Below are positions 13,271 to 64,000 of a DNA stretch of 64,000 bases, piece after piece. Numbering within the stretch: the first letter of the stretch is position 1; each line of letters starts with the position of its first letter. Where the stretch lies: assembly GCA_035389185.1 (NCBI GenBank), contig DAOORK010000001.1, forward strand, positions 129,006 to 193,005, written 5' to 3'. Origin of the DNA: Candidatus Woesebacteria bacterium. GTDB taxonomy: Bacteria; Patescibacteriota; Microgenomatia; UBA1400; MFAQ01. Under the pieces are notes generated by a model that did no database searches, had not been told where the DNA came from, and saw only the letters and a list, made by a program, of their open reading frames with translations. Made by a program: the position numbers and the translations under genes.

Positions 13271-13298
13271 GCTACACCTTTCCTCTCCTGTTTGGGAA

Positions 13299-13983: not shown

Positions 13984-13996
13984 CAAAAAACTGAAT

Positions 13997-14016: not shown

Positions 14017-14038
14017 GTTATTTGAAAGTGGCCGCTGA

Positions 14039-45880: not shown

Positions 45881-45883
45881 TTT

Positions 45884-46311: not shown

Positions 46312-46454
46312 TTCCTTTTTCCTCCTTTCTCGCCGGGCTACGGCGTGCTGGTTGCACCGCTCCTTCGAGAAATTTAGCTGTACCAATAAAGACGCTCTCT
46401 ACTGCGAATAATCTATCACCAAAAATCTAACTTAGCAACTTTTTACTTAGAGTG

Positions 46455-47780: not shown

Positions 47781-47813
47781 TACTTATCAATGTACCGCAA
47801 GTTTTCTGTAAGT

Positions 47814-49656: not shown

Positions 49657-50978
49657 GTGATTTGTTTAGCTTTTAATCCAGTGAGTCTCTCCCATCTTTT
49701 TTTGATAACCTCAGCGTAGACTGGAGACTTCTCCATGAGATAGCAACGACGTTTCATTTTGGTAGCCGCAATCAAGGTTGACCCGCTGCCACCAAATGGT
49801 TCGACAATCAGGTTACCTCGCTTGGTAAGAACTTTGATGTATGGAATTAATATCTCGGTTGGTTTGGTGCCGAAGATCACACCTTGGCCGGAATGTTTTT
49901 CATCTGAGGCATTAAACTCAATGAAATCTGTTGGTTGTGTTTTCTTTCCTTTCTCATACCCTTCCCATTGAGGTTTGCCAGATATGGCGTAGAGTGCGGT
50001 TTCATATTCTTGCTGGAGTCCGTCTTGTTCTTCCTCGTTGTTGTACTGAATATCCACTTCTTTTGACGCTCCAACCATGGCAATGTCATGTTTGCTGAAG
50101 AACTTATATTTAGCAGAGAAACCTTGATGTCGATTGGGTAAATGCCAAATTATCATATTTTTTACTTTCCAATGTTTTTCCATTTCCCCCCAAATGGTTC
50201 GTAGGTTCTTCCAGTTTTCGTAAACAATGATGGAGAAATGTTCCTTTTGAATATTGGCGATGCTGTTCATCCATTTTTCAGTAAAGTCTAACGGAAGACT
50301 TTCGGTTTCCAAATATCTTCGATCTCTTTTAGCTCCGAATCCTGTTACCGCTTTTCCGTGGCGTTTAGCTTTTAGATAGTCGAGAATGTATGGAGGATCG
50401 GTAAAACACATATCTGCTTTCTCCCCAGCCATCAACTTGAGCCATTCTTCATCGTTGGTGGAATCTCCACACATCAATCTGCTTCCGTCGAGGTCATAAA
50501 TATCACCTTTCTTTATATTTATTTTGGTGATATCCATCTTCAATAGTTCCTTCTGGAGATCAAACTGTTCCGGTGTGTCTTCAATCTCAAAGATTTGATC
50601 TAACTCTTCACTGGAGAAACCAACACTATCCAAAAAAGCAGAATCAAAATCGGCTAACAAACCCCAATCCCATTCACCTGTGTTTTTGTTTAGTCTGAGA
50701 TTTAACTCTTTTTCTTTCTCGATGTCGGGAATATTTACATAGACCACAGGAATTGTTTCGAAGCCCATTTCTTTGGCGACTTCTAACCTGAAATGACCAC
50801 CGATGACAATGTTCTTCCTTTCTGGAGCTTCGTTGACGATGATTGGATCGACCAATCCAAATTTGGTAATACTTTCTTTCAACTGGTCAGCTGATTGTTT
50901 ATCGTGCTTCCTGGGGTTGTATGCCGCAGGATTAAGTTCCTTTATGAAAACTTGGGTTATTTGTATTTGTTTACTCAT
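49653..50978 (-). CDS. ParB-like nuclease domain fused to a DNA methyltransferase (beta-class N4/N6)
   Basis: N-terminal ParB/Srx block (GGHFRLEVAKEMG), motif IV DPPY placed before motif I FGGSGST, so beta-class permutation. Confidence 0.85.
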   Translation of the reverse strand: MSKQIQITQVFIKELNPAAYNPRKHDKQSADQLKESITKFGLVDPIIVNEAPERKNIVIGGHFRLEVAKEMGFETIPVVYVNIPDIEKEKELNLRLNKNTGEWDWGLLADFDSAFLDSVGFSSEELDQIFEIEDTPEQFDLQKELLKMDITKINIKKGDIYDLDGSRLMCGDSTNDEEWLKLMAGEKADMCFTDPPYILDYLKAKRHGKAVTGFGAKRDRRYLETESLPLDFTEKWMNSIANIQKEHFSIIVYENWKNLRTIWGEMEKHWKVKNMIIWHLPNRHQGFSAKYKFFSKHDIAMVGASKEVDIQYNNEEEQDGLQQEYETALYAISGKPQWEGYEKGKKTQPTDFIEFNASDEKHSGQGVIFGTKPTEILIPYIKVLTKRGNLIVEPFGGSGSTLIAATKMKRRCYLMEKSPVYAEVIKKRWERLTGLKAKQIT

Positions 50979-51498: not shown

Positions 51499-51876
51499 TT
51501 AATTTTGACCGTACTTTTTCCCGATTTGGTCTTTGAGTTCTGCCGCGAACTTTTCCAAATCTTGATACTCCTTGTTTATCACAACTTTTACGCCTATTTT
51601 TAGAAGTTCCTCGTTGTATGGTGGGACAGAAGAAATTCCAATTATTTTATCTACTCCAAATTTTTCAAAATCTAATGCATGGAAAGATCCGCCCATGGCA
51701 CAATCACGGTCAAGAAGAATTATGTCGAATTTTAGTTCACTAGGGTTAAGTATCTTTTCGACTTGCTCATAAGTGGAAAAAACTACTGGAGCAAAATCTA
51801 TCTTTGTTTCGAATAATACTCTAAAAATTATCGAGAGCGTCTCCAAATCATCTTCGAGGATAAGCATTGACTTCAT
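51499..51876 (-). CDS. response-regulator receiver-like (CheY-like) domain protein, stand-alone
   Basis: MLILEDD ... ILLDRD pattern (phospho-acceptor Asp position) with alternating beta/alpha periodicity; 125 aa. Confidence 0.4.
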   Translation of the reverse strand: MKSMLILEDDLETLSIIFRVLFETKIDFAPVVFSTYEQVEKILNPSELKFDIILLDRDCAMGGSFHALDFEKFGVDKIIGISSVPPYNEELLKIGVKVVINKEYQDLEKFAAELKDQIGKKYGQN

Positions 51877-53369
51877 TGTCCTTGTTTATCTAAATAGTCT
51901 TTGATAACCATGGTAGCTACACAGTCGTCTTCGTTATACAGAAGAATTCTGTCCATATCGGCCTTGTCTTTGGTTTCAAGATAGTGGTTAAACCATTCAA
52001 TAGACATGGCGCCGGAGGGTGTCTTGTCTCGCCAGCTAAAGCCTAGATACTGAGCAATTTCTTTTAGAGAGTAGCTCATCAAGGGCCAATCGGTATGTTT
52101 GGAAACTACAGAATATAGATCTATTGCTTTTTCTTCACTAAAGAACCAAGCAAGTTCTTCCTCAGTAACCACATCCGGATACTTTTCTCTCATGCGGCGA
52201 TAGGTTGTCTTCTCGTGGTGGGAATAATAGTAAGTAGTAAAGTCGTCTTTGGGTAGTGATCGAATATATTGCCAAAAATTACTCCAGGCTTCTCTTTCTG
52301 ATTCGTCGGTTTTGTCTAATGCAGTAAAGTCTATAAACCTCTCCCCTTTTGGAGAGCGCTCGTATACACCATGAAGATAGACAAAGGCTTGGGTGGGATC
52401 GTCTTCAATATCAAAATATAATTCGTAGCTTGTTTTGGGAAAGTTCATTTTTTCGTAAATGACGGGACTTTTTGTAACTTCCATGATTTTTGATCTTTGA
52501 ACAAACTTTGTGAGTTTTGCCTCTCCCAAACCAAATAAATACTTTTTGTCTTTTTTCTTTTTGGCCAATAGTGTGTCGATGTCCAGGTCAATCAAATCTA
52601 TGTAGCTTTCAATGTCCAAATCTCTTTCTAGGATATCTCTGTTGGCCCTACCGAGACAGAAGATCATACTTGGGTCATGACTCTCTTTTATCCATTTTTT
52701 GCAGCTTGCGTACCATGGGCAAAGTTTGCATTTGCCGGAATATGCTGGTTTGTTTTTTATTTCGTTATTTAAGAGCTTCCCTGCCATTACTTTTGTTTCT
52801 TGGTAAAAGTCCCAGTAAGTTTGAGGTGTTTTTGTGCCAATAGGTTTATCCAAGTCGTATGTAGTTCTCTCGGAGTTAATATCGATAATGGCACCAGAAT
52901 GTTTTTTAGCAAAACCGAGATTGATAAGCACTTCGCAGTAGAGAGCGAGTTGAACCGCATAATGTATTTTGTATTTTCCCTCATTATCATTTTCCTCATC
53001 TACTCCCTCAACTCCCATACCGCTTTTGATGTCGACTGGTAGGTAGGTACCGTCTGGCTGTATTTCTAAGAGGTCCGGAATGCCAAAGAGCTCGCTGTGG
53101 CGAATAGCTCCTTGGTAAATGAGTGGCATTCCTGCATTCATGGCTTCTAGAGTGGCTTTTTCTCTTTCTTTCTCCCCTACTTCTTTGAGATCCAGAATCT
53201 TTCCCAGCTTGCCCACTATATTTTCTTCGTGACTGACTCCTTTTTCCCAAAGCATTTCTACAAAGGGATTTGTATCTGGATTCTTTTCGGCCTTTGGGCC
53301 ATACACATCACGCCAAATACGATGTTCGCACTGGAGGTAGTTATATAGTTTAGATGGTGTGATTTTCAT
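51873..53369 (-). CDS. RecB-family nuclease, TM0106-like (Cas4-like PD-(D/E)xK with Fe-S cysteines, plus a C-terminal RNase H-like domain)
   Basis: N-terminal Cys (YLQCEH), IPDLLEI...VDIK, QLALYCEV (QxxxY), CKLCPWYASC; C-terminal FDIEDD ... YYSHHEKT ... YNEDDC; ATGA overlap with the receiver gene. Confidence 0.55.
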   Translation of the reverse strand: MKITPSKLYNYLQCEHRIWRDVYGPKAEKNPDTNPFVEMLWEKGVSHEENIVGKLGKILDLKEVGEKEREKATLEAMNAGMPLIYQGAIRHSELFGIPDLLEIQPDGTYLPVDIKSGMGVEGVDEENDNEGKYKIHYAVQLALYCEVLINLGFAKKHSGAIIDINSERTTYDLDKPIGTKTPQTYWDFYQETKVMAGKLLNNEIKNKPAYSGKCKLCPWYASCKKWIKESHDPSMIFCLGRANRDILERDLDIESYIDLIDLDIDTLLAKKKKDKKYLFGLGEAKLTKFVQRSKIMEVTKSPVIYEKMNFPKTSYELYFDIEDDPTQAFVYLHGVYERSPKGERFIDFTALDKTDESEREAWSNFWQYIRSLPKDDFTTYYYSHHEKTTYRRMREKYPDVVTEEELAWFFSEEKAIDLYSVVSKHTDWPLMSYSLKEIAQYLGFSWRDKTPSGAMSIEWFNHYLETKDKADMDRILLYNEDDCVATMVIKDYLDKQGQ

Positions 53370-53462: not shown

Positions 53463-56400
53463 ATGACTTTCAATAAAATATTGGATCGTTTTAGGTCTGA
53501 ATCATTTTCTGAGCGAGATAAGGGATTTAAGTTTGAAAGGCTTATTCAAGCATATTTATACACTGACCCAAAATATACCCACCTACAAAAGATATGGCTT
53601 TGGGGTGAATTTCCCTTTCGCTCCTCATTTGGAGGCCAAGATGTAGGAATTGATTTGGTTGCTAAAACATTTGAAGGTGAATATTGGGCAATACAATGCA
53701 AATGTTATCAAGAAGATAATCGCATTAATAAAGAGGAGGTCGATACTTTCTTAGCCACATCGAGTCGCAGTTTTAAGGATGAACAATTAGCAGAGATCAA
53801 ATTTAGTCACTGTCTTTGGGTTTCTACAACAAATAATTGGTCCTCAAATGCGAACGAATCGTTGCAAAATCAAAATCCTCCGGTAACCAGAATAAATCTA
53901 TCTGACTTACAGGAAGCATCTGTTGACTGGTCTAAAATAAGTGAAGGAATGTATGGTGAGAAAGCACGAACTCCTAAGAAGCAACTTAAATATCACCAAA
54001 AAGAGGCCCTTGATAAAGCCATAAACTATTTTAAGAATGACAACCGTGGAAAATTAATCATGGCTTGCGGCACAGGCAAGACTTTTACCAGTCTAAAGAT
54101 TGCAGAGGAACTGACAAATCACACTGGTACTATTTTGTTCTTAGTCCCCTCGATCGCCTTACTCGGACAATCTCTTCGAGAGTGGACAAGTGACGCCGCA
54201 GAAGAAATAAATCCTATTGCAATCTGTTCTGATTCGGAAATTACAAAAGACAAAAAAAAGAATGAAGACACCGACACCTACAGTGTAGTTGACTTAGCTA
54301 TCCCCGCCTCTACAAACATGAGAGACATTCTCAAACAATTTGAGTATTTTGAAATGGCAAAAAAGAAAGGCCTGACCGTTGTCTTCTCCACATATCAGTC
54401 AATTGATGTAATTTCCCAGACCCAGAAGAGACTTGAAAGTATCGGGAGTAAGTACCAAAAGTTTGATCTTATTGTATGCGATGAAGCACACCGTACTACT
54501 GGAGTAACGATTTCCGGAGAGGATGAATCATCATTTGTCAAAGTACACGACAATGCTTTCATTAATGCAGATAAGCGTATATACATGACTGCCACACCTA
54601 GACTATATGGTGAAGAGTCAAAGAGAAAAGCTGAAGAAACATCTGCTGTGTTGTGCTCAATGGATGATGAGGCACTTTATGGTAAAGAAATATATCGCAT
54701 TGGCTTTGGTGAGGCAGTTGAACGAGATTTACTGTCGGACTACAAGGTCTTAATCCTTACTCTTTCCGAAAATGATGTAACTCCAGAGGTCCAAAAAATA
54801 CTCCAGAATCCTGAACACGAAATCGGTGTTGATGATGCTTCAAAGTTGATTGGATGTATAAATGCAATGTCAAAACAAATTATTAGTGATAAGGGCACTG
54901 TGAACACAAATGACCCTGATCCTATGCGACGTGCCGTGGCATTTACTTCGAGCATAAAGATTTCCAAAAAAATTACTGATTCGTTTAATGAAATTGGTGA
55001 AACTTACGCAAAATCAGTTCCGGAACTAAAACAACAAACACTAGTAAACCTTAACTCAAAACACATAGATGGATCTATGTCTGCGACTGACCGCAATGAG
55101 CTTATGTCTTGGCTAAAGGCAGAGCCTAACGACTCCCAAGAGGCTCGGGTTCTCACAAATGTTAGATGTTTAAGTGAAGGTGTTGATGTACCAACTCTCG
55201 ATGCTGTTATGTTCCTTTCGGCAAAGAACTCCCAAATTGATGTAGTTCAATCAGTGGGTCGAGTAATGCGAAAAAGTCCAGGTAAACAATATGGTTATAT
55301 TATTATTCCTATTGTTATCCCAACAGATGTTAAACCTGAAGATGCTCTGAAAGATAATGATAGATATAAGGTTGTCTGGACAGTATTAAACGCACTACGT
55401 GCACATGATGACCGATTTAACGCGATTGTAAATAAGATCGATCTAAACAAAAATCGTCCAGTACAAATTATTATCGGAAGGCCAGATCCAGATGGTGATG
55501 GAGATCCTTTTAATGATTCTGACGAATCAAAAAAGGCACTCAAGGGTTCTCAGCTAGCATTACAATTTGATCAACTCCAAAATGCTATTTATGCGAAAAT
55601 GGTGCAAAAAGTTGGTGATCGTCAATATTGGGAAAACTGGGCAAAAAGTGTTGCAGACATAGCTGAAAGGCAGATTGTAAGAATCACGAAGATAGTTGAC
55701 GAAGATGACTCTGCGCACATGGGCTTCCGTGAATTTGTTCGAGGTCTACGAAAAAATATAAATCCATCGATAACTGAACAGCAGGCTATTGAAATGTTGT
55801 CGCAACACATAATCACAAAACCAGTTTTTGAGGCATTGTTTGAAGGGTATTCTTTTGTTTCAAACAATGCAGTGTCCATATCTATGCAAAAAGCACTTGA
55901 TGCTATAGAAACAAAGGCTATCGAAGATGTTGATGCAGAGCTTCTTCAGGGGTTTTATAAATCAGTTCGAAAACGAGCAGAGGGAATTGATAATTCAGAA
56001 GGAAAACAAAGAATAATAGTTGAGCTTTACGACAAATTTTTTAAGACTGCATTTCCAAAACTGGTAGAGCAGTTGGGCATAGTATATACACCTGTGGAGG
56101 TGGTTGATTTCATAATCCACTCCATAAATGATGTGTTACAAAATGAATTTGGTCGTAGCTTGAGTGATGAGAATGTAAATATTCTCGACCCATTCACTGG
56201 GACAGGAACATTTATTACTCGCTTATTACAGACTGGTGTAATAAAGCATCAAGATCTTGAAAGAAAATACAAGGGAGAAATTTTTGCTAATGAAATAGTA
56301 CTACTTGCCTACTACATAGCAGCAGTAAATATTGAAAATGCATATCATGATCTGCTTAAAAAAGATGTCTATGAGAGTTTTGAAGGTATTGTTCTTACTG

Positions 56401-58325
56401 ACACCTTCCAGCTGAGTGAAGATGGCGACAATGAAAAATTATTTTGTGATGCGTTAGCAGAAAACTCAGAGAGACTTGAACGTCAGAAAAATACACCTCT
56501 TAAAGTGATCATGGGAAACCCACCATATTCGGTTGGCCAAACTTCAGCAAATGACGCGTCACAAAATCAAAGCTATCCAAAACTAGAAAACCGAATCGGA
56601 CAGACATATGTATCTCAAATCACCGATAACACCCTCAAGCAATCACTATATGATGCATATATTAAGGCGTTCCGCTGGGCCACTGATCGCCTTGATAAAG
56701 ATGGTGGAATTATCTGTTTTGTTTCTAATGGAGCCTGGCTTGACGGAAAAGCTACCTCTGGATTTAGAAAAACAATTGAAAATGAGTTTACTAGTGTTTA
56801 TGTCTTTAATCTTCGAGGTAACCAACGAACAAATGGAGAAGAATCTCGTCGCGAGGGGGGGAAAATATTCGGAAGTGGCTCTCGTACACCGATTTCTATC
56901 ACACTACTAGTCAAAAATCCAAACAAACATAACGATAAAGCTGAGATTTTGTATCACGACATTGGAGACTATCTAAGTCGGGAAGAAAAACTGAAAATTA
57001 TATCTGATTTTAAGACAGTATCAAATCAAAAATTAGTCTGGAAAACGCTTAATCCAAACAATGAGGGAGATTGGATAAACAAACGTCATAGCATTTTTGA
57101 TACTTATGTAGAGCTTGGTTCAAAAGCTAAAAATAAGAACTCGTGCTTTGATCTGTATTCTGCTGGAGTTATTACGCATCGCGATGCATGGGTTTACGAC
57201 TTCAGCGAAATTAAGCTGGAAGATAAACTAACCAGAATGATTTCCTTTTATAACAGTGAGGCAAAAAAGCTGCAAGTGATGAGGCAAAAAAATCATAGAG
57301 TATCTGTCGAGAAAAGTGTTAATAAAGATTCTAAACTTATCAAATGGGATCGTAGGCTGTATGAACATGCTGATAAATCTGTAGTTCACACCTTTAATAG
57401 TGCTGATATTTATACAACGCTATATCGCCCATTCTCGAAACAACATTATTATTTCAATAAAAATTTAAGCTGGAGCAGATACTTACAACCGAAGCTATTT
57501 CCCTACCCCACGAGCAGTAATCTTGTGATCTGCACCACAGGACCAGGAGCAAACAAGGATTTTTCTGCATTAATGAGCAATGTTGTCACTGACTTCCATA
57601 CGTTAATGAATAATCAATCTTTTCCGCTATATTACTATGAAAAGAATGAACAAAATATTCCTTCTCTTTTCGATTTAGAAAAGAATAACGAATATAACAA
57701 GAGAGATAGTATAAGTGATTACGTTTTGCGTAAAGCACAAACACAATATTCTGATAATGAAATCAGCAAAGAAGATATCTTTTATTACATATATGGACTG
57801 CTTCATAGCATGGACTATCGAATTGAGTTTGCAAATGATTTAAAAAAAATGTCACCTAAAATTCCCCTTGTTGAAACAATAAGTGATTTCAAGAAATTTA
57901 GTAAAGCAGGTAGAAAATTGGGAGAACTACATGTAAACTACGAAAAAGTTCCCCCATATGAAGGTGTTAGGGTGAGCGGGACACAGCACAATAACTATCT
58001 TGTTGAGAAACTCAAATTCATTAAGAAGGGACAACGTGACACAATAATATTTAACAATCAAATAAAGATTGAGAATATCCCCGAAATTGCTTATAAGTAT
58101 GTTGTAAATGGGAAGAGTGCAATTGAATGGATTGTCGAGAAATATCAGATTAAAACGGATAAGGAAAGCGGAATAGTTAATGATCCAAATGATTGGGCGA
58201 AGGAAGTTGGAAATCCCAGATATATTCTTGATTTGCTTCTGAGTGTAATTAATTTAAGTGTTCAAACAGTGGACATTGTAAATAGCTTACCCAAGCTAAG
58301 TTTTGACACTGGGACAAAAGAATAA
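53463..58325 (+). CDS. Type ISP-like single-polypeptide restriction-modification enzyme (Mrr nuclease, SF2 helicase-like ATPase, gamma-class N6-adenine methyltransferase, target-recognition domain)
   Basis: N-terminus GQDVGIDLVA...IQCKCY (Mrr PD-QxK); LIMACGTGKTFT (motif I), VCDEAHRTTG (DEAH), QSVGRVMR (motif VI); DPFTGTGTF (methyltransferase motif I) then NPPY; 1620 aa. Confidence 0.7.
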   Translation: MTFNKILDRFRSESFSERDKGFKFERLIQAYLYTDPKYTHLQKIWLWGEFPFRSSFGGQDVGIDLVAKTFEGEYWAIQCKCYQEDNRINKEEVDTFLATSSRSFKDEQLAEIKFSHCLWVSTTNNWSSNANESLQNQNPPVTRINLSDLQEASVDWSKISEGMYGEKARTPKKQLKYHQKEALDKAINYFKNDNRGKLIMACGTGKTFTSLKIAEELTNHTGTILFLVPSIALLGQSLREWTSDAAEEINPIAICSDSEITKDKKKNEDTDTYSVVDLAIPASTNMRDILKQFEYFEMAKKKGLTVVFSTYQSIDVISQTQKRLESIGSKYQKFDLIVCDEAHRTTGVTISGEDESSFVKVHDNAFINADKRIYMTATPRLYGEESKRKAEETSAVLCSMDDEALYGKEIYRIGFGEAVERDLLSDYKVLILTLSENDVTPEVQKILQNPEHEIGVDDASKLIGCINAMSKQIISDKGTVNTNDPDPMRRAVAFTSSIKISKKITDSFNEIGETYAKSVPELKQQTLVNLNSKHIDGSMSATDRNELMSWLKAEPNDSQEARVLTNVRCLSEGVDVPTLDAVMFLSAKNSQIDVVQSVGRVMRKSPGKQYGYIIIPIVIPTDVKPEDALKDNDRYKVVWTVLNALRAHDDRFNAIVNKIDLNKNRPVQIIIGRPDPDGDGDPFNDSDESKKALKGSQLALQFDQLQNAIYAKMVQKVGDRQYWENWAKSVADIAERQIVRITKIVDEDDSAHMGFREFVRGLRKNINPSITEQQAIEMLSQHIITKPVFEALFEGYSFVSNNAVSISMQKALDAIETKAIEDVDAELLQGFYKSVRKRAEGIDNSEGKQRIIVELYDKFFKTAFPKLVEQLGIVYTPVEVVDFIIHSINDVLQNEFGRSLSDENVNILDPFTGTGTFITRLLQTGVIKHQDLERKYKGEIFANEIVLLAYYIAAVNIENAYHDLLKKDVYESFEGIVLTDTFQLSEDGDNEKLFCDALAENSERLERQKNTPLKVIMGNPPYSVGQTSANDASQNQSYPKLENRIGQTYVSQITDNTLKQSLYDAYIKAFRWATDRLDKDGGIICFVSNGAWLDGKATSGFRKTIENEFTSVYVFNLRGNQRTNGEESRREGGKIFGSGSRTPISITLLVKNPNKHNDKAEILYHDIGDYLSREEKLKIISDFKTVSNQKLVWKTLNPNNEGDWINKRHSIFDTYVELGSKAKNKNSCFDLYSAGVITHRDAWVYDFSEIKLEDKLTRMISFYNSEAKKLQVMRQKNHRVSVEKSVNKDSKLIKWDRRLYEHADKSVVHTFNSADIYTTLYRPFSKQHYYFNKNLSWSRYLQPKLFPYPTSSNLVICTTGPGANKDFSALMSNVVTDFHTLMNNQSFPLYYYEKNEQNIPSLFDLEKNNEYNKRDSISDYVLRKAQTQYSDNEISKEDIFYYIYGLLHSMDYRIEFANDLKKMSPKIPLVETISDFKKFSKAGRKLGELHVNYEKVPPYEGVRVSGTQHNNYLVEKLKFIKKGQRDTIIFNNQIKIENIPEIAYKYVVNGKSAIEWIVEKYQIKTDKESGIVNDPNDWAKEVGNPRYILDLLLSVINLSVQTVDIVNSLPKLSFDTGTKE

Positions 58326-58326
58326 T

Positions 58327-59757
58327 ATGGAATGGCTAGTCCTCATGGGAGGAGTTCTATTAGTCGGATATTTTCTCGGTAAATCAGATAAGTCTGGTAG
58401 AGAGGTTAGCACTCCTGATCCAGTCAAATCTGTACAATCAGGTCAATTTCCTAAGAAACTAAATGTTAAGCATGAGGAAATTGACAGCATTAATCTTAGT
58501 GATGAGCAATCTGAAATATTTAACTTACTAGAAACGACAAATAATGCTTATTATGTAACTGGAAAAGCAGGCACTGGTAAATCCATACTATTAAAATATT
58601 TTGTTACCCATACTGGAAAAAGAGTTGTTGTAGTTGCTCCTACAGGAGTGGCTGCTCTAAATATTGGTGGCCAGACAATACATTCACTTTTTAAGATGCC
58701 ATTTGATATCGATTTTAATGATATCAAGGTTGATTACAGAACCAGAGAGCTATTGAGAAATATCGATACGGTAGTTATTGATGAAGTATCAATGGTTCGT
58801 GCTGATTTGATGGAGGCAATGAATATTAAACTGCAAATATCCAGAGGAAATACTCTGCCGTTTGGTGATGTCCAAATGATAATGTTTGGTGATTTGTATC
58901 AATTACCTCCAGTCGTAAGTGATGGCGAATTACAAAGATACTTAAATCATAAGTTTGGTGGACACTATTTCTTTAACGCACCGTCAATAAACAAAGCTAA
59001 TCTGCAAACCTATGAACTTAAAAAAGTATTTCGGCAGAAAGATGCTGAATTTATAAGAATATTGGATGCCGTAAGGAGAGGTGTAATTAAAGAAATTGAC
59101 TTAGAGGCACTTAACGAACGTTCTCGTGCCGATAAACCTACTGATGGATATGTAACTCTGGCAGGAACAAATGAAACTGTGTCGTATATCAACCATAAAA
59201 ACTTAGATAAACTCCCTGGAGAAGAAAAGGTATATGAGGCTGAAATATGGGGAGATATCACAGAGAATTCGTTTCCAACTGAAAAGAAGTTGAGACTTAA
59301 AATTGGTGCTCAAATTATGATGCTAAAAAATGACACTGAGAAACCGAGGCGATGGGTAAATGGAACACTTGGCGTAATTACAAAATTAAGTCAAGACGTG
59401 GTTCGCGTAAACATTGATGGAGTTGAGCACACCATCACACCCGCAAACTGGGACAAAATTCAATACGAATACGACCCAGATAATCGAGAGCTAAACAAAA
59501 AAGTTGTAAGTTCTTTTAAGCAATTACCATTACGATTGGCTTGGGCTATAACAATCCATAAATCACAAGGGCAAACATATAAAACAATTGCAATTGATTT
59601 AACAGGTGGTGCGTTTGCTCACGGACAGACATATGTTGCACTCAGTAGATGTGTCTCGCTAGAAGGAATATATCTTAATGCTCCAATCAAGAAGGAGGAC
59701 ATCATTGTTGACCCTGACATTATTGAATTTATGAGCAAGGCGGTGGTACTTAATTAA
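58327..59757 (+). CDS. PIF1/RecD-like SF1B helicase
   Basis: VTGKAGTGKS Walker A, VVIDEVSM Walker B, C-terminal LAWAITIHKSQGQTY...VALSRC (PIF1 motifs V and VI); ATG 1 nt after the upstream stop. Confidence 0.7.
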   Translation: MEWLVLMGGVLLVGYFLGKSDKSGREVSTPDPVKSVQSGQFPKKLNVKHEEIDSINLSDEQSEIFNLLETTNNAYYVTGKAGTGKSILLKYFVTHTGKRVVVVAPTGVAALNIGGQTIHSLFKMPFDIDFNDIKVDYRTRELLRNIDTVVIDEVSMVRADLMEAMNIKLQISRGNTLPFGDVQMIMFGDLYQLPPVVSDGELQRYLNHKFGGHYFFNAPSINKANLQTYELKKVFRQKDAEFIRILDAVRRGVIKEIDLEALNERSRADKPTDGYVTLAGTNETVSYINHKNLDKLPGEEKVYEAEIWGDITENSFPTEKKLRLKIGAQIMMLKNDTEKPRRWVNGTLGVITKLSQDVVRVNIDGVEHTITPANWDKIQYEYDPDNRELNKKVVSSFKQLPLRLAWAITIHKSQGQTYKTIAIDLTGGAFAHGQTYVALSRCVSLEGIYLNAPIKKEDIIVDPDIIEFMSKAVVLN

Positions 59758-59795: not shown

Positions 59796-61313
59796 TTATT
59801 TCTTTACTTCAGGGTTAAGGAAGAATTCTGGACCTTGGGAATCGTAAAGGCTTTTGAGTTCCAGAATATATGACTTGTTAAGTAGGTAGGTACTGCCGTC
59901 TTTGACAGTTTCCCAAGTTCCCTCGTAGGTTTTTCGTATCTGTTCGCCATTGACCCACTCTGCCATGCCAAACATGACATAAACTAGATTTGGTTTGATT
60001 TCCTCAACACGGAACACCTCAACACTTATGACATTTGGGAAGCGAGCTGTCCACTCTGCATAGGTTGATTTGGTTTTGTAGGATGGACTCAAAAGATCGT
60101 AGCAACCCTGAGTGTCTCTGGCTTTTAGAAGATAGTAGTAGGCATAAACTGATGCCTTTGGTGATGCACCTGGCTCTAGCTTTATTTTTTTGGGTTCCTC
60201 TTTGGTAGCTAACTTTGCGGTATCTAAAGTGTCTCCACTAATAATTAGTGAAGTACCCGAAGTTGTCATTGTATTTATGCCGACAAAGTCACCACACTTG
60301 TCAAATACTGGTCCACCACTCATTCCTGATACTAGAGCTGAAGAGAATTGATAATATTCCGCCTTATCTTGTGGCATGACACGAACATCTACGTATCGAA
60401 TAGGGAGAACTGTTGGTGATCCCTTAATATCTGAACCCAATGGATAGCCAAATGATAGGAACTCTTCACCAGAAACCATTTTTGCCTTATTTCCATTAAC
60501 AACATACCCTGGCTCGTTTATATTTATTGTAATGATGGCAATATCGTAGTCTTTGGACATTTCTACCTTTGTAGGAGTAATGAACTCTCCTGTTGGAAGA
60601 ACTATTTTTGGAAAATCTTCACCTTCTACTACATGTCTATTGGTAATAACTGTAGTTTGGTCTATGAAGAAACCTGAACCCTCTGAATACGAGCCGATAA
60701 TCCTGACTACTTTTGGTGAAATCTTTGTCTTTGTGTCTTGGTATGAACAGAAAAATTTATCATATCCATTTAATTGAGAATACAGGCGGTATTCAAGAGT
60801 AGAGATGTAAAGAAGCGAAACCAAAAGAACAAACGAGAACATAAAGTACTGTGGTTTTTTGAAGATGAGCTTGAAGTAGGCTGGAATTGACAAGGCTATT
60901 ACAAATATACTCGCGAGTCCGATTGGAAGTGCAAGACTGAAGAAGTAACGATAATGATCCGCTGCTAACACAGAGGCATTTACGTCTGGAGAGGTGTAGA
61001 TGAAGGCTATAGGAATGGATATCAGCCCTACAATACCCAACGGGACTGAGAAAAAACGAGAAATTTTTCTGAGTAATTTGAAGGATATGATAAATAAGGC
61101 TATTGGGAGATAGAAATAGGCAAGAATTTCAAAAAAGTTATTTGACTCTTCGAAGTTGAAATTAGTTTTTGAACAGTACCACCAGAATATTAAATATACC
61201 CAGATGTAGAGCTTCCAATTAAACAGTATCCCAAAAAATCTACTGAGCTTGGGTCTAACTCCAAATTGAACCCGTAAAGATGTCCCTACTTTTCTTAATA
61301 TTCGTGATGTCAC
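59796..61313 (-). CDS. membrane-anchored trypsin-like serine protease (S1 family)
   Basis: Multi-TM N-terminus; catalytic triad context TNRHVV (His), DYDIAII (Asp), GMSGGPVF (Ser); extra C-terminal domain. Confidence 0.6.
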   Translation of the reverse strand: MTSRILRKVGTSLRVQFGVRPKLSRFFGILFNWKLYIWVYLIFWWYCSKTNFNFEESNNFFEILAYFYLPIALFIISFKLLRKISRFFSVPLGIVGLISIPIAFIYTSPDVNASVLAADHYRYFFSLALPIGLASIFVIALSIPAYFKLIFKKPQYFMFSFVLLVSLLYISTLEYRLYSQLNGYDKFFCSYQDTKTKISPKVVRIIGSYSEGSGFFIDQTTVITNRHVVEGEDFPKIVLPTGEFITPTKVEMSKDYDIAIITININEPGYVVNGNKAKMVSGEEFLSFGYPLGSDIKGSPTVLPIRYVDVRVMPQDKAEYYQFSSALVSGMSGGPVFDKCGDFVGINTMTTSGTSLIISGDTLDTAKLATKEEPKKIKLEPGASPKASVYAYYYLLKARDTQGCYDLLSPSYKTKSTYAEWTARFPNVISVEVFRVEEIKPNLVYVMFGMAEWVNGEQIRKTYEGTWETVKDGSTYLLNKSYILELKSLYDSQGPEFFLNPEVKK

Positions 61314-61379: not shown

Positions 61380-62465
61380 ATGGATATGTCCAAATACATC
61401 CTAACTAGTGATGGAAAGATTCATGTAAGAACTGATAACGTGAGCTTGCTTGATGTTGATGAGAAATTTGAAGAAGCTGCGAGATTGATAATATTGGAAG
61501 GAAGAGGTTCGGCGTCGATATTACAGAGAAGATTAGAGGTCGGGTATGCAAGAGCCGCGAGAATATTGGATCAACTTGAACAAGCAGGAATTCTAGGACG
61601 ATCCGAGGGGAATAAACCTAGAGAAGTGATTATTAGCTCTTTTGATGAATTTATAAAAAGTGATGGAAAAGAGGTTGGACCAGAAGAAGTATTTCCAGAG
61701 GATATTAAGAAGGAGTGGGCACCAAAAGAGATTGCAGATGCAGTTATGTCAAATCTACAGAAAGAAGCCTTATATGTGGAGGGAATAATGATTCCGGTGG
61801 GAATGGAGAAAAAGAGAATGATTTCTGCTTCACTGGACAATCTTGGTCATATCTATATTTTTAATAGCCCAATGTGTAACTCGATTGGACTACTTAAATC
61901 GCAACTGGAATTTCTAACTAATACATATAGCCCAGATGCACTTAAGCTGATTGTGAGTGATGATACTAGATTGTTTTCGAACTCTACAATTGCTGACTCA
62001 CCTCACATGCTGACTCCGGTAATTTATGACCAGAGCAAAGTCCAAAACGCACTTGGTTGGGTGAGTGCTGAGATTGAAAGAAGATTCCGAATTCTTCAAG
62101 AGACAGGTGTGAGTAGTTTTGACGCTTATGGAAAAACAGGGAATCCCCCACTGCCTAGAATTATTTGTGTTGTTAGTAGTACTTCTAGCAGACTGGCATA
62201 TAACGAAGATTGTCATTATGGTATTGAAAACATACTAAATTCTGGTCATTTGGTTGGTGTGCATTTGATTGTTGCATCGCCACTAATTGAGAGGAAGTTC
62301 TCTAAACTGATGACTTCGTTCCCCACAAAGATTATCTTTAAAACATTCTCTGCTTCACAAGCAGACTTGCTAGGAACTGATGATGCATTCGATCTGACCA
62401 GTGGTGATGAGTTTGTATTTGTACCGGCATATGGTGAGATACAAAAATTGAAAGTGAATGGATAA
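61380..62465 (+). CDS. FtsK/SpoIIIE-like protein with an N-terminal gamma domain and a degenerate (Walker A-less) motor domain
   Basis: EAARLIILEGRGSASILQRRLEVGYARAARILDQLEQAGILG matches the FtsK gamma winged helix; HLVGVHLIVASP...KIIFKTFSASQADLLG matches the FtsK motor C-terminus, but GxxGxGKS is absent and the Walker B region reads VVSSTSS. Confidence 0.55.
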   Translation: MDMSKYILTSDGKIHVRTDNVSLLDVDEKFEEAARLIILEGRGSASILQRRLEVGYARAARILDQLEQAGILGRSEGNKPREVIISSFDEFIKSDGKEVGPEEVFPEDIKKEWAPKEIADAVMSNLQKEALYVEGIMIPVGMEKKRMISASLDNLGHIYIFNSPMCNSIGLLKSQLEFLTNTYSPDALKLIVSDDTRLFSNSTIADSPHMLTPVIYDQSKVQNALGWVSAEIERRFRILQETGVSSFDAYGKTGNPPLPRIICVVSSTSSRLAYNEDCHYGIENILNSGHLVGVHLIVASPLIERKFSKLMTSFPTKIIFKTFSASQADLLGTDDAFDLTSGDEFVFVPAYGEIQKLKVNG

Positions 62466-63126
62466 AGGGATGTGGGACAAGTTGATGAATACAAATTGGT
62501 GGGAGAAATTTGTAAAGTTTGTATTTGAAGGATTGAGAAAATTATTAGTCTTGGTTGGCAATTTAATTGTTAAGATTCAAGCATTTGTTCATAGCGGTGA
62601 GTGGACGAAGAAACATTTGTCTTTTGTTAAGGAGGGAAATAAGTTCAAGTTTGTTGTAAAAAGTCATGACGATTTAGTTGATGAGGTGGAAATAGAGATA
62701 GCTAAGTACAAAGGAAAGAGATGGGGCAAGAAGTTCATTAAGTTTGTTTTAGAACAGGCATTGTCGGGGTGTAACTTTGTAGTAATTGAGAGCGACAATG
62801 TGTTTGTACAGTTTTGGACTGGGAAAGGCAGACTGGAGATGGATATACCTTTAGTAAAGGGAAATGGCTTGAGGAAGTACTACTACACCGTGATTGGATT
62901 ACTCACCGACATGAATTACTTTAAGTATCCATTTACTAGAACAGGTATTCCTACGATCCTCAAAGTGCCGGAACATTTTACTTTTCGAGTAGATGAGGAA
63001 GAAGGTTTTACTAAGGTAATTGGATATTTTGATAAGAGGACTGATCAGGCGGTTGAATTTGTGGATAGGTTGTTTAGGGAAGTTTATGAGGTGAAGAATA
63101 AGGTGCTGGAGATTAAGGTTGGGTAA
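62458..63126 (+). CDS. hypothetical protein
   Basis: 222-aa ORF overlapping the FtsK-like gene by 8 nt (co-operonic). Confidence 0.45.
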   Translation: MDKGMWDKLMNTNWWEKFVKFVFEGLRKLLVLVGNLIVKIQAFVHSGEWTKKHLSFVKEGNKFKFVVKSHDDLVDEVEIEIAKYKGKRWGKKFIKFVLEQALSGCNFVVIESDNVFVQFWTGKGRLEMDIPLVKGNGLRKYYYTVIGLLTDMNYFKYPFTRTGIPTILKVPEHFTFRVDEEEGFTKVIGYFDKRTDQAVEFVDRLFREVYEVKNKVLEIKVG

Positions 63127-63181: not shown

Positions 63182-64000
63182 CTATCTACTAAAGGCATCT
63201 CTAAATAGTTTCCAGCACGCGTAACTTGTAAAATTATAAATTGCCCCTTTCAGTACTAGTAGACTAATGTTGCTTTCAACTTTGTGCATATCGCCAAAAT
63301 ATATTGAACTAAAATCATTATGAAAATCGCTGTATTTAACTGCCAATTCACCTTTATCTAATCCAGAATTGCTTGTTATACCCTCGATAAATTTAAGTAG
63401 TCCAGGTTTTTTCTCCTTTTTAACGATAGGAATAGCCATTGGAAGAAGTTTTTTGCCAATTTCTATTACATCAGCGCTTTTTCCAGATCCATCTCTTTGA
63501 CTAAGTGCTTCGACTACATGGAGACACCCTGATTCATAAAGTTCCTTAATTGTTTTTCTCCCCTTTATTTTTTCAGCTATTTCCTTTAGTCGGCTTTCGT
63601 TTGATATAAGTTCATCTTGTAAATCCTTAGCGTAGACCTGTTCTCTTGAAATAAAAATTGCTCTCACACACCGAGTGAATATTTTTCTGGCGAAGCTAAT
63701 ATGATTTAAATGTTCATCAGTTGAATTCCTACCTCTGTATAGAGTGTTAGGTTCCTCCTTTCCATGGACAATTTTTGAACGTTGTTCGTAAAAGTTTTTC
63801 ACCCAATGATTCATTTCTGGTGTTTCCCCCAACAATGCCATTATGTTTGATGACAATGTAGCCTGAATCGCTTCAGACGGTGAATTGAATAGTGCTTCAA
63901 AGGCAACTGCTAAACTAGTAAATCTTTCCAGATCATCGACCTCTGGATCAACCTTGAAAGATCGGTTAAACCAGTCAAACGCCCTAAGATACCGAGCAAT
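63182..64000 (-). CDS. hypothetical protein (N-terminus outside window)
   Basis: The reading frame stays open from 63856 to the window edge; the track start is an internal TTG. Confidence 0.45.
   Translation of the reverse strand: MARYLRAFDWFNRSFKVDPEVDDLERFTSLAVAFEALFNSPSEAIQATLSSNIMALLGETPEMNHWVKNFYEQRSKIVHGKEEPNTLYRGRNSTDEHLNHISFARKIFTRCVRAIFISREQVYAKDLQDELISNESRLKEIAEKIKGRKTIKELYESGCLHVVEALSQRDGSGKSADVIEIGKKLLPMAIPIVKKEKKPGLLKFIEGITSNSGLDKGELAVKYSDFHNDFSSIYFGDMHKVESNISLLVLKGAIYNFTSYACWKLFRDAFSR

What the first reader, a model, noticed from the sequence alone, without database searches (positions are those of the whole stretch)
61380..63126. ATPase-dead FtsK homolog with the KOPS-binding gamma domain moved to the N-terminus, co-operonic with an unknown 222-aa protein
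Residues about 32-75 match the FtsK gamma winged helix (GSASILQRRLEVGYARAARILDQLE), which is normally C-terminal. The C-terminal 120 residues match the RecA-fold tail of the FtsK motor (HLVGVHLIVASP ... KIIFKTFSASQADLLGTDDAFDLTSGDEFVFVP). No P-loop is present, and the Walker B position reads VVSSTSS. A DNA-motif-reading but non-translocating FtsK derivative inside a defence or mobile island could act as a sensor or anti-defence decoy. Its 8-nt overlap with the next gene indicates a two-gene unit.
Basis: partly seen in the sequence, partly recalled or inferred. Interest (0 to 1): 0.6.

Follow-up and report, generated by a model that had tools for sequence, protein, structure and literature searches.

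The report
Motor-dead, gamma-first FtsK paralogue beside restriction genes
This gene encodes a copy of the bacterial DNA pump FtsK that has kept its DNA-reading head (moved to the front) but lost every residue needed to burn ATP, and its relatives in these tiny-genome bacteria sit next to restriction-enzyme genes, so it probably serves them as a DNA-reading helper rather than a pump.

Summary
ORF 61380-62465 (361 aa) has a canonical FtsK gamma winged helix at residues 26-85 (Pfam E 1.5e-24). It also has a complete RecA-like FtsK beta domain at about residues 135-350, not only a 120-residue tail. Walker A, the Walker B Asp-Glu and the Gln-Arg/arginine-finger elements are all lost.

It is not a pseudogene. 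It belongs to a conserved family with at least 80 clusters at 90% identity. All named members are Microgenomates; this window is a Candidatus Woesebacteria MAG. All 62 aligned members are gamma-first and lack Walker B, and their beta domains form one clade.

In 10 of 15 informative contexts, restriction genes of varied types lie directly upstream. None occurs in 63 canonical ftsK loci. Recurrent neighbours are a polytopic-membrane trypsin-like protease, a Cas4-like nuclease and a separate FtsK-alpha-only protein.

The 222-aa partner occurs only in the window's clade. In the closest relatives (86-91% identical) the alpha-only gene takes its place. The 8-nt overlap depends on the start codon chosen.

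Here the gene lies in a low-GC island of about 24 kb with a serine integrase, terminase genes and a Type ISP enzyme.

Best reading: a non-translocating, DNA-motif-reading adaptor that accompanies restriction systems. The exact role is unproven. It is a new variant of a known kind.

The parts
61380..62465 (+). Gamma-first, ATPase-dead FtsK paralogue ('gamma-beta*', 361 aa); NCBI annotates it as 'DNA translocase FtsK' (HOX95973.1)
   Evidence: ORF. Pfam and NCBIfam matches. Family alignments A1 and A2. AF2 model and Foldseek. Source name.
61455..61634 (+). FtsK gamma winged-helix domain (residues 26-85). Q49/R50 correspond to E. coli Q1288/R1289, R61 to R1300 and D64 to E1303.
   Evidence: Pfam E 1.5e-24. 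PDB gamma chains 2j5o, 2ve8 and 5dcf. Fold TM 0.84. Q49, R50, Y56, R58, A60 and D64 are invariant in 62 sequences. Residue roles come from PMC5052618.
61635..61781 (+). Linker (residues 86-134), partly disordered; no FtsK alpha domain
   Evidence: pLDDT below 50 at residues 97-105. No FtsK_alpha Pfam hit.
61782..62462 (+). Inert RecA-like FtsK beta domain (residues about 135-361)
   Evidence: The HMM aligns over the whole canonical beta domain. Foldseek 6t8b_B E 8e-15, 262 columns.
61860..61883 (+). Degenerate Walker A position (FNSPMCNS, residues 161-168)
   Evidence: Alignment to 2IUT. Per-member motif table.
62160..62180 (+). Degenerate Walker B position (IICVVSS, residues 261-267; Asp-Glu replaced by Ser-Ser)
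62458..63126 (+). 222-aa partner (or 218 aa from ATG 62470). Soluble, with no family match and a weak resemblance to the T3SS-chaperone fold.
   Evidence: No Pfam, NCBIfam, PHROG or PADLOC hit. Ten homologue clusters, at least six with a longest contig of the same length as that of a close gamma-beta* relative. Linkage pattern. AF2 pLDDT 66; best Foldseek hit Spa15 at E 8.5e-3.
59796..61313 (-). Polytopic-membrane trypsin-like protease (505 aa), divergent neighbour; a conserved neighbour in distant family loci
   Evidence: Trypsin_2 E 1.9e-19. Four hydrophobic helices. Homologues next to gamma-beta* in L102 (66% identity), L091 and L107 (E 1e-67 to 1e-73).
53463..58325 (+). Type ISP restriction-modification enzyme (1620 aa: Mrr_cat_2, helicase, ISP coupler, methylase/Type_ISP_C)
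   Evidence: Pfam. A related Type ISP enzyme lies next to gamma-beta* in L004.
58303..59757 (+). Pif1/RecD-like helicase immediately after the Type ISP gene
   Evidence: PIF1 E 1.7e-32. PADLOC RecD-like hits.
51873..53369 (-). Cas4-like PD-(D/E)XK nuclease fused to an RNase_H_2 exonuclease-like domain (498 aa)
   Evidence: Pfam. PADLOC Cas4.
51499..51876 (-). 125-aa protein with a receiver-like sequence pattern. Its homologue (47% identity) lies directly downstream of gamma-beta* in L004.
   Evidence: No Pfam hit.
45806..50978 (.). Left end of the island: tRNA-Lys and tRNA-Glu, large serine recombinase (46455-47780, -), terminase large subunit (47814-49244, -), terminase small subunit (49222-49656, -), ParB-N6/N4 methylase (49653-50978, -)
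   Evidence: tRNAs. Pfam. PHROG phrog_38 E 3.5e-74 and phrog_95 E 2.4e-59. Core genes RuvCAB and holA lie to the left.
63182..64000 (-). 3' part of a gene for an unknown protein of 462-475 aa, cut by the window end; the island continues about 5.7 kb further
   Evidence: L085 extension. No Pfam or PHROG hit.

Best explanation
**What it is.** The gene encodes a domain-permuted, catalytically dead paralogue of the FtsK motor of Patescibacteria (CPR bacteria). I call it gamma-beta*. It keeps a fully canonical gamma winged helix, the part of FtsK that reads the polar 8-bp KOPS motif and touches XerD. It also keeps an intact but inert RecA-like beta fold.

**How it most likely works.** It cannot translocate DNA. 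It most likely acts as a static DNA-motif-reading adaptor that accompanies restriction systems in mobile defence islands of Microgenomates.
- The gamma head binds DNA carrying the same motif class that the host FtsK reads.
- The dead beta body serves as an oligomerisation or docking platform for variable partners. These are a separate, often membrane-anchored FtsK-alpha-only protein, a polytopic-membrane trypsin-like protease and a Cas4-like nuclease. In this window's clade the 222-aa protein joins them.
- The likely purpose is to tell host-type DNA from foreign DNA, or to position DNA at the membrane, for the adjacent ATP-dependent restriction enzymes.

**Shown.**
- The architecture.
- Loss of all ATPase motifs across the family.
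- Strong conservation of the gamma contact residues.
- A single clade of beta* domains.
- Association with restriction genes and with the alpha, protease and nuclease neighbours.
- Location inside an island.

**Inferred.**
- DNA-motif binding.
- Complex formation.
- The functional coupling to restriction and its direction (protecting self or targeting foreign DNA).
For: **Architecture and inactivation.** None of the 62 aligned members has a hhhhDE Walker B, and none has GxxxxGK[ST]. A Daviesbacteria-like subclade keeps a 'GxSSSGKE' remnant. In the 50%-identity library, representative P0281 is gamma-first and keeps GVPSSGKS plus the Walker B Asp, but lacks the catalytic Glu and the Gln-Arg pair. 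Permutation therefore preceded full erosion.

**Not a pseudogene.**
- The family has at least 80 clusters at 90% identity.
- About 31 full-length single-stretch representatives appear among the top 150 of the 50%-identity library.
- Invariant residues are concentrated in gamma.
- Beta* domains are monophyletic against 76 canonical beta domains in an NJ tree.

**Gamma tracks the lineage-specific canonical gamma.**
- The window's gamma is 81% and 79% identical to the canonical FtsK gamma of L005 and L006. It is only 49-59% identical to the gamma of distant family members.
- The Daviesbacteria member P0039 is 75-76% identical to Daviesbacteria-type canonical gamma.
- This fits a shared ligand, namely the host motif and/or XerD.

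**Context.** Restriction genes lie within 5 kb upstream in 10 of 15 informative loci:
- Type ISP: window and L004.
- Type I: L003, L088, L091 and L106.
- MmeI-like methylase with PLD-SNF2: L094 and L108.
- Mod/Res: L096.
- Dcm, SNF2 and AspBHI-Mrr: L107.

They are often co-directional with short or overlapping junctions; in L003 the hsdR stop overlaps the gamma-beta* start. In contrast, 0 of 63 canonical ftsK loci contain an RM-like ORF (Fisher p = 2.4e-9).

**Recurrent neighbours.**
- Alpha-only protein, about 60% identical to the canonical CPR alpha domain: L001, L088, L091, L099, L100, L101 and L107.
- TM-trypsin protease: window, L102, L091 and L107.
- Cas4-like PDDEXK nuclease: L004, L088, L091, L094 and L096.

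**Island setting in the window.**
Against: - No experiment or direct computation shows DNA binding, oligomerisation or any effect on restriction.
- The restriction association could reflect shared residence in variable 'defence islands', or an insertion hotspot next to a chromosomal gene. L088 and L094 share their right flank (mgsA, PMT_2) while the restriction cassette differs.
- Three to five contexts (L001, L090, L100, L102, L103) show no restriction genes in the DNA available.
- In the window's clade the pore-loop basic residues are replaced. K657/R661 of PaFtsK become Ala/Asp within an invariant acidic 'ADLLGTDDAFDL' motif. The beta* body therefore probably does not grip DNA here. The main clade keeps 'TDKKIAR'. 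The two clades may thus work differently.
- PADLOC has no model for this protein.
- The control used restriction proteins from the family loci as queries, so it could miss very different restriction genes.
Confidence: 0.45

Rival explanations
1. **FtsK-independent Xer activator carried by a mobile element (XafT-like logic).** The free gamma domain binds XerD and switches on XerCD recombination away from the septum. This could help the island or its circular form integrate, excise or resolve dimers.
For: The residues of E. coli FtsK gamma that matter most for XerD activation, Q1288 and R1289, correspond to Q49 and R50, which are invariant in the family (PMC5052618). Isolated gamma is enough to activate XerD when brought close to it (PMC3130261, abstract). 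Mobile elements are known to encode their own Xer activators (XafT: PMC6744903, PMC9226527). The gene lies in integrative islands.
Against: The islands carry large serine recombinases, not Xer-dependent sites (window, L090, L100). No tyrosine recombinase was annotated in any context. No dif-like direct repeats flank the modules. The same gamma surface also binds KOPS DNA, so conservation of Q/R does not separate the two roles (PMC5052618). This model does not explain the restriction, alpha-only, protease or nuclease neighbours.
Confidence: 0.15
2. **Poison or regulatory subunit of the host FtsK.** The dead beta domain co-assembles with host FtsK subunits, or gamma competes for KOPS and XerD. 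This slows chromosome clearing or division to the benefit of a phage or island, or acts as a cell-cycle regulator.
For: The beta fold and several FtsK-typical motifs ('HLLTPVI', 'W..E..RR') are retained. The gamma domain is nearly indistinguishable from a canonical gamma. In the window's clade, acidic residues replace the pore-loop residues, which would block DNA passage in a mixed ring. Terminase and integrase genes lie in the same island.
Against: The family often comes with its own alpha-only protein. This suggests a self-contained alpha + beta* + gamma assembly rather than mixing with host FtsK. The beta domain is only about 25-28% identical to canonical CPR beta, so interface compatibility is doubtful. 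The gene is co-oriented with host-type restriction operons rather than with phage lytic modules.
Confidence: 0.15
3. **Chromosomal segregation or DNA-tethering factor of Microgenomates.** In this view it is a housekeeping paralogue that happens to sit at a hotspot where restriction cassettes insert. Together with the membrane alpha-only protein it would tether motif-bearing chromosomal DNA to the membrane.
For: The family is widespread in at least four named candidate Microgenomates lineages: Woese-, Shapiro-, Collier- and Daviesbacteria. L088 and L094 share PDDEXK, gamma-beta* and mgsA synteny while their restriction cassettes differ. Alpha-only proteins carry hydrophobic helices.
Against: In the window the gene lies inside a low-GC island between an integrase at a tRNA site and core genes. 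Contexts within the window's clade differ greatly. L094 shows an mgsA 3' fragment on the far side of the cassette, which suggests that the whole block including gamma-beta* inserted into mgsA. The link to restriction genes spans five enzyme types and includes overlapping junctions.
Confidence: 0.15
4. **Decaying remnant.** A broken, rearranged ftsK fragment with no function.
For: All catalytic motifs are lost.
Against: The reading frame is intact. The AF2 model is confident (pLDDT 86.4). At least 80 clusters at 90% identity span identities down to 25-28% and share a conserved length. Invariant functional residues persist in gamma. Neighbours are conserved.
Confidence: 0.02

Closest known systems
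FtsK/SpoIIIE DNA translocases (canonical bacterial FtsK: 4TM, linker, alpha, beta, gamma)
   Same: The beta (RecA-like) and gamma (winged-helix) domains are homologous. The gamma domain is 75-81% identical to that of some canonical CPR FtsK proteins. Motifs such as 'HLLTPV' and 'W..E..RR' are retained.
   Different: The domain order is gamma then beta. There is no TM region and no alpha domain in the same chain. Walker A, Walker B Asp-Glu, the Gln-Arg pair and the arginine finger are missing, so it cannot be a translocase. When an alpha domain is present it is a separate small protein.
Degenerate ATPase domains of type VII secretion EssC/EccC (FtsK-like)
   Same: They are FtsK-family RecA folds in which some copies have lost catalytic residues and act as regulatory or substrate-binding modules. 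NCBIfam and Foldseek both hit EssC/EccC.
   Different: There are no FHA or TM regions and no tandem ATPase array. There is no secretion-system context. A gamma DNA-binding domain is present, which T7SS ATPases lack.
'HerA/FtsK capture' defence systems (DndH and relatives; PMC10853773, PMC12839542)
   Same: FtsK-derived modules, some with the FtsK alpha domain, are taken from the cellular segregation machinery and linked to restriction-type nucleases and wHTH domains in mobile defence loci.
   Different: Those systems are described as having an active pump, with sensor Gln and arginine finger intact, and are proposed to translocate invader DNA. Here the ATPase is dead, gamma comes first, and the module is a separate small protein beside classical RM systems. 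This family is not described in those papers as far as I could search.
XafT, the Xer activation factor of phage TLC-phi (PMC6744903, PMC9226527)
   Same: It is a protein encoded by a mobile element that replaces the gamma function of FtsK away from the septum. This is a functional analogy for one rival reading.
   Different: No sequence homology to XafT was tested or seen. The islands here use serine recombinases, and no Xer site was found.
Streptomyces TraB (FtsK-like conjugation pump with a C-terminal wHTH that reads 8-bp clt repeats); this entry rests on my own knowledge, not a tool result
   Same: It is an FtsK-like body plus a gamma-like motif reader carried on a mobile element. One family locus (L096) lies next to T4SS genes.
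   Different: TraB is an active ATPase with a C-terminal wHTH and TM anchors. The protein here is inert and soluble.

Membership tests
FtsK/SpoIIIE translocase (PF01580 motor) | RecA-like beta-domain fold homologous to the FtsK motor | tested here: met
   Pfam E 6e-8 above the gathering score. The HMM covers the whole canonical beta domain. Foldseek 6t8b_B E 8e-15, rmsd 3.0 A over 262 columns.
FtsK/SpoIIIE translocase (PF01580 motor) | Walker A P-loop GxxGxGK[ST] | tested here: not met
   'FNSPMCNS' aligns to 'GTTGSGKS'. The motif is absent in all 62 aligned family members.
FtsK/SpoIIIE translocase (PF01580 motor) | Walker B hhhhDE | tested here: not met
   'IICVVSS' aligns to 'IVVVVDE'. No family member keeps Asp-Glu at this position.
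FtsK/SpoIIIE translocase (PF01580 motor) | Arginine finger (PaFtsK R620) and the Gln-Arg of loop II (R632); DNA-contacting loop I residues K657/R661 | tested here: not met
   R620 aligns with His290. The Gln-Arg pair is deleted. K657/R661 align with Ala/Asp in the window's clade, whereas the main clade keeps K..R (alignment; residue roles from PMC7321959).
FtsK/SpoIIIE translocase (PF01580 motor) | Domain order TM, linker, alpha, beta, gamma in one chain | tested here: not met
   Gamma is at residues 26-85 and beta at about 135-350. There is no FtsK_alpha or 4TM hit and no hydrophobic helix.
FtsK gamma domain (PF09397) | Winged-helix fold with the conserved recognition helix (QR..GY.RAAR..[DE]) | tested here: met
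   E 1.5e-24. TM 0.84 to 2j5p. Q49, R50, Y56, R58, A60 and D64 are invariant.
FtsK gamma domain (PF09397) | Sequence-specific binding to KOPS-type motifs, and/or XerD activation | not testable with these tools
   Only inferred, from conservation of the contact residues (PMC5052618) and from gamma tracking the canonical gamma.
HerA/FtsK capture defence systems (PMC10853773) | FtsK/HerA-type module genomically linked to restriction-type nucleases in mobile loci | tested here: met
   Ten of 15 contexts have restriction genes directly upstream against 0 of 63 canonical ftsK loci.
HerA/FtsK capture defence systems (PMC10853773) | Catalytically competent pump (sensor Gln, arginine finger, Walker motifs) | tested here: not met
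   All are lost.
Type VII secretion EssC/EccC | Tandem FtsK-like ATPase domains with TM/FHA regions and a T7SS gene context | tested here: not met
   There is a single beta domain. The NCBIfam score of 51 bits is far below the cut-off of 778. No T7SS genes occur in any context.
Xer activation factors of IMEX elements (XafT-type) | Element integrates or excises through XerCD at a dif-like site | tested here: inconclusive
   No flanking dif-like direct repeats. Serine recombinases are present instead. Complete island boundaries were not available.

The most novel reading that the evidence does not exclude
The module may be a self/non-self device for restriction enzymes that uses the chromosome's own polarity motif as the mark of 'self'. 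In this reading the gamma head of the dead FtsK sits on KOPS-type motifs, which are dense and oriented on the host chromosome and rare or disordered on invaders. The inert beta body then recruits the membrane alpha-only protein, the trypsin-like protease or the Cas4-like nuclease. The result would be to stop or degrade translocating Type I, ISP or III enzymes on host DNA (a built-in restriction alleviation), or conversely to release them on DNA that lacks the motif. This would be the first case of FtsK's motif reader being reused for immunity. It would also give a concrete answer to how translocating restriction enzymes spare unmodified host DNA.
Probability: 0.15. Interest if true: 0.85.

Novelty: new variant of a known kind. 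Interest (0 to 1): 0.62.

Why it matters
FtsK is one of the best-understood DNA motors, and its gamma domain is the textbook example of a protein that reads chromosome polarity.

It also keeps turning up directly behind restriction enzymes of at least five different types. Together these facts point to an undescribed use of the polarity reader.

If the link to restriction is functional, the family offers a testable route to an old question: how ATP-driven restriction enzymes distinguish the host chromosome from foreign DNA when methylation is incomplete. It would also add an inactive-motor variant to the recently proposed 'HerA/FtsK capture' theme in defence systems.

On the practical side, public annotation pipelines label these proteins 'DNA translocase FtsK'. 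That is wrong in functional terms and could mislead cell-division inventories of CPR genomes.

Tried and rejected
1. **Genome-contig scan with the full-length alignment.** The tool chose gamma-domain patterns, and all 80 loci returned were canonical FtsK. They were useless for context but later served as a control set and for the gamma and beta trees.
2. **Viral-contig scan with the protein.** It found no relatives.
3. **Phage GenBank tblastn.** All hits came as two pieces (beta and gamma aligned separately) at under 60% identity in unannotated records; I took them for canonical FtsK-type genes and did not check further.
4. **Metagenome-contig scan with the C-terminal alignment of the window's clade.** It gave only 7 short loci. 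These were still informative because they showed the alpha-only protein replacing the partner.
5. **dif-like or att direct repeats flanking the modules.** Nothing convincing was found.
6. **PADLOC.** There is no defence-system model for the protein. The weak SspH hit (E 5.5e-5) was dismissed.
8. **Shared genes between L005/L006 and the window.** None were found, so a common lineage of the 81%-identical canonical gamma could not be proven.
9. **Pseudogene or artefact reading.** Rejected on the basis of family-wide conservation.
10. **Prophage structural genes to the right of the gene.** None were detected, so the island is a phage-derived or degraded element rather than a demonstrable intact prophage.
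Full report
**1. The observation**

ORFs 61380..62465 (+, 361 aa) and 62458..63126 (+, 222 aa) exist as stated.

*Gamma domain.*
- Pfam places an FtsK gamma domain at residues 26-85 (E 1.5e-24, 85.9 bits against a cut-off of 30.6).
- It places part of the FtsK_SpoIIIE motor at residues 182-300 (E 6e-8).
- NCBIfam adds only sub-threshold matches to FtsK, EssC and EccC.

*Extent of the motor domain.*
- A profile built from the family aligns positions about 120-347 across the entire beta (RecA-like) domain of canonical CPR FtsK at about 180 bits. It aligns positions about 15-92 to their C-terminal gamma.
- The motor part is therefore the whole beta domain, not a 120-residue tail.

*Structure.*
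- An AlphaFold2 model built on a 62-sequence alignment is confident (pLDDT 86.4).
- Foldseek matches it to the FtsK motor (6t8b_B: E 8e-15, 262 columns, rmsd 3.0 A). It matches the N-terminal part to E. coli FtsK gamma (2j5p: TM 0.84, rmsd 1.3 A).

*Catalytic residues.* The residue-level alignment to P. aeruginosa FtsK, with numbering from PMC7321959, shows:
- Walker A 'GTTGSGKS' aligns with 'FNSPMCNS'.
- Walker B 'VVVVDE' aligns with 'ICVVSS'.
- The 'ATQRPS' segment has lost Gln-Arg (R632).
- Arginine finger R620 is His.
- Pore-loop residues K657/R661 are Ala/Asp.

**2. It is a family, not an accident**

*Size.*
- A sequence search found full-length relatives of 337-390 aa down to about 28% identity.
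- A profile search raised this to at least 80 clusters at 90% identity.
- A full scan of 1.84 billion 50%-identity representatives lists about 31 full-length, single-stretch, gamma-first representatives among the top 150. The rest are canonical FtsK, which crowd the list.

*Taxonomy.* Source names are all Microgenomates: Candidatus Woesebacteria (this window; the protein is annotated 'DNA translocase FtsK', HOX95973.1), Shapirobacteria, Collierbacteria and Daviesbacteria.

*State of the motifs.*
- In the 62-sequence alignment no member has GxxxxGK[ST] or a hhhhDE Walker B.
- A Daviesbacteria-like subclade keeps a 'G(A/P/S)SSSGKE' remnant.
- One representative (P0281) is gamma-first and still has GVPSSGKS and the Walker B Asp, but it lacks the catalytic Glu and Gln-Arg.
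- The permutation therefore came first and the site then decayed.

*Phylogeny.*
- In an NJ tree the 62 beta* domains form an exclusive clade against 76 canonical beta domains. Long-branch effects cannot be excluded.
- The gamma domains do not form a clade.
- The window's gamma is 81% and 79% identical to the canonical FtsK gamma of loci L005 and L006, but only 49-59% identical to the gamma of distant family members.
- The Daviesbacteria member is 75-76% identical to Daviesbacteria-type canonical gamma.
- The reader domain of the dead paralogue thus tracks the lineage's canonical reader. This would follow from gene conversion or from constraint by the same ligand.
- I could not prove that L005 and L006 belong to the window's lineage.

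*Contact residues.*
- E. coli Q1288/R1289 are the residues most important for XerD activation and also contact KOPS DNA (PMC5052618). They correspond to Q49/R50, which are invariant.
- R1300 corresponds to R61 and E1303 to D64.

**3. Surroundings in the window**

*Boundaries.*
- To the left of tRNA-Lys/tRNA-Glu (45806-45958) lie the core genes ruvC, ruvA, ruvB and holA.
- To the right lies a lower-GC stretch (0.36-0.39 against 0.40-0.44).
- In the extended locus L085 the island continues about 5.7 kb past the window end to adenylate kinase. It contains DUF5677 and SNase-like genes but no recognisable phage structural genes.
- It is therefore a phage-derived or degraded integrative island of about 24 kb.

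*Gene content of the island inside the window, left to right*:
- a large serine recombinase;
- terminase large subunit (PHROG E 3.5e-74) and terminase small subunit;
- a ParB-methylase;
- a 125-aa protein with a receiver-like sequence pattern;
- a Cas4-like PD-(D/E)XK + RNase_H_2 protein;
- a 1620-aa Type ISP restriction-modification enzyme;
- a Pif1 helicase;
- a four-TM trypsin-like protease, on the opposite strand;
- the dead FtsK;
- the 222-aa partner.

**4. Surroundings in relatives**

Fifteen contexts had enough flank.

*Restriction genes.* They lie directly upstream in ten contexts:

| Restriction type | Loci |
|---|---|
| Type ISP | window, L004 |
| Type I | L003 (hsdR stop overlaps the start of the gene), L088, L091 (plus a IIG enzyme), L106 |
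| MmeI-like methylase + PLD-SNF2 | L094, L108 |
| Mod/Res | L096 (itself preceded by T4SS genes) |
| Dcm + SNF2 + AspBHI/Mrr | L107 |

As a control I searched 63 canonical ftsK loci of at least 12 kb with 22 restriction proteins taken from those contexts. There were no hits even at E 1e-3. The positive control worked (Fisher p = 2.4e-9). The caveat is that the queries came from the family's own loci.

*Other recurrent neighbours*:

| Neighbour | Details | Loci |
|---|---|---|
| FtsK-alpha-only protein | 146-247 aa; about 60% identical to the canonical CPR alpha domain; often has a hydrophobic helix | L001, L088, L091, L099, L100, L101, L107 |
| Polytopic-membrane trypsin-like protease | homologous to the window's (E 1e-67 to 1e-226) | L091, L102, L107 |
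| Cas4-like nuclease | about 250 aa | L004, L088, L091, L094, L096 |

The ordered string protease, alpha, gamma-beta* occurs in L091 and L107. Together the alpha-only protein and gamma-beta* carry all three subdomains of the FtsK motor, but split, reordered and without catalysis.

Serine recombinases in L090 and L100, and an mgsA 3' fragment on the far side of the L094 block, point to mobility of the whole block.

**5. The partner**

- The 222-aa protein matches no Pfam, NCBIfam, PHROG or PADLOC model.
- It has only ten homologue clusters. At least six have a longest contig of the same length as that of a close (at least 50% identical) gamma-beta* relative, which suggests they lie on the same contigs.
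- It is immediately downstream in the window, L104, L102 and L108. It is one gene away in L003 and 2.8 kb away in L001.
- In L099 and L101, whose dead FtsK is 86% and 91% identical to the window's, the alpha-only gene occupies that slot with a 4-nt overlap.
- The partner is thus a clade-specific accessory and not a defining half of a two-gene system.
- Its start may be ATG 62470, which is preceded by AAAGGG. That would give a 4-nt gap rather than an 8-nt overlap.
- Its AF2 model is weak (pLDDT 66) and resembles T3SS class-I chaperones only marginally (best E 8.5e-3).

**6. Mechanism**

*What is shown.*
- A reader domain under strong constraint.
- An inert but well-folded RecA-like body.
- A single-origin family.
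- A statistical and often operon-like link to ATP-dependent restriction enzymes.
- Recurring membrane, protease and nuclease partners.
- Residence in an island.

*What I infer, with about 0.45 confidence.*
- The protein is a static DNA-motif reader and docking platform that accompanies restriction systems.
- It probably helps them tell host-type DNA from foreign DNA, or positions DNA at the membrane.

*Difference between the clades.*
- The window's clade has replaced the DNA-gripping pore residues with an invariant acidic 'ADLLGTDDAFDL' motif.
- The main clade keeps 'TDKKIAR'.
- In this window the beta body therefore more likely binds protein than DNA.

*Rivals.*
- An FtsK-independent XerD activator for the element (XafT-like: PMC6744903, PMC9226527).
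- A poison or regulatory subunit of host FtsK.
- A housekeeping tethering factor sitting at a restriction-cassette hotspot.
- Each rival has some support and is not excluded. The pseudogene reading is excluded.

**7. Comparison with what is known**

- By homology it belongs to the FtsK/SpoIIIE superfamily, but it fails every catalytic and architectural criterion of a translocase.
- Its logic resembles the degenerate ATPase domains of EssC/EccC.
- It fits the 'HerA/FtsK capture' theme, in which cellular FtsK modules are recruited to restriction-type defence loci (PMC10853773, PMC12839542). Those modules are described as active pumps.
- My full-text searches found no description of a gamma-first, ATPase-dead FtsK or of its link to restriction systems. 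This is absence of evidence within the library searched.

**8. Verdict**

- It is a new variant of a known kind.
- Interest is moderate to high (0.62). The anatomy and the context are both unusual and consistent, but the function is still inferred.

Noticed in passing
L099:1602-2042 (+), L101:402-842 (+), L091:9444-9989 (+), L088:9481-9999 (+), L107:9442-9981 (+), L001:7237-7980 (-), L100:6602-7219 (-): These are stand-alone FtsK-alpha-domain proteins of 146-247 aa. They are about 60% identical to the alpha domain of canonical CPR FtsK, and several carry an N- or C-terminal hydrophobic helix. They are encoded next to the dead FtsK. The window itself has none.
   Followed up: partly
P0281 (396 aa; from the 50%-identity representative library): This gamma-first family member still has an intact Walker A (GVPSSGKS) and the Walker B Asp, but lacks the catalytic Glu and the Gln-Arg pair. 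It may be an ATP-binding intermediate in the decay series.
   Followed up: partly
window 51499-51876 (-) and L004:9170-9565 (+): This 125-131-aa protein has a receiver-like sequence pattern (…LEDD…ILLDRDC…GGSF…) and no Pfam hit. In the window it sits 10 kb upstream beside the Type ISP gene. In L004 it lies directly downstream of the dead FtsK (47% identity).
   Followed up: partly
L094:1240-1839 (-) versus L094:13382-14545 (-): A 199-aa MgsA_C-only fragment lies to the left of the restriction cassette, and an intact mgsA/rarA lies to the right of the block containing the dead FtsK. This looks like insertion of the whole block into the 3' end of mgsA.
   Followed up: no
L096:131-5211 (+): A T4SS-type cluster (TrbC/VirB2-like pilins, PrgI, TraC-like, a VirB4-like ATPase and an M23 peptidase) lies directly upstream of the Mod/Res, Cas4-like and dead-FtsK string in an anaerobic-digester CPR contig.
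   Followed up: no
L004: 7917-7954, 10676-10727, 11264-11297, 11582-11615, 13565-13598, 14893-14945: A repeated intergenic element of about 35-50 nt ('TATTTTACCACCAAACCC…GAGGCTAGAAT…') recurs between genes, including just upstream of the dead FtsK gene. It may be a promoter, terminator or regulatory repeat.
   Followed up: no
P0229, P0232, P0234, P0293 (2846-3075 aa): These giant proteins contain 7-8 separate FtsK-beta-like stretches and scored highly against the family profile. Their nature was not examined.
   Followed up: no
window 265-14102 and 45806-45958: The 64-kb window holds eleven tRNA genes, including a cluster at 11.3-14.1 kb. The tRNA-Lys/tRNA-Glu pair marks the left boundary of the island.
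   Followed up: partly
window 58303-58325: The Pif1-like helicase ORF can start at a TTG that overlaps the end of the Type ISP gene by 23 nt, while other gene calls start it at 58327. Either way the helicase is tightly coupled to the restriction enzyme.
   Followed up: no
PHROG families phrog_22882 and phrog_13700: These phage protein families of about 280 aa carry the gamma-like region near the N-terminus of the profile (positions 10-72 and 63-132). Gamma-first proteins may therefore also exist in phages. Their C-terminal parts were not compared with the beta* domain.
   Followed up: no
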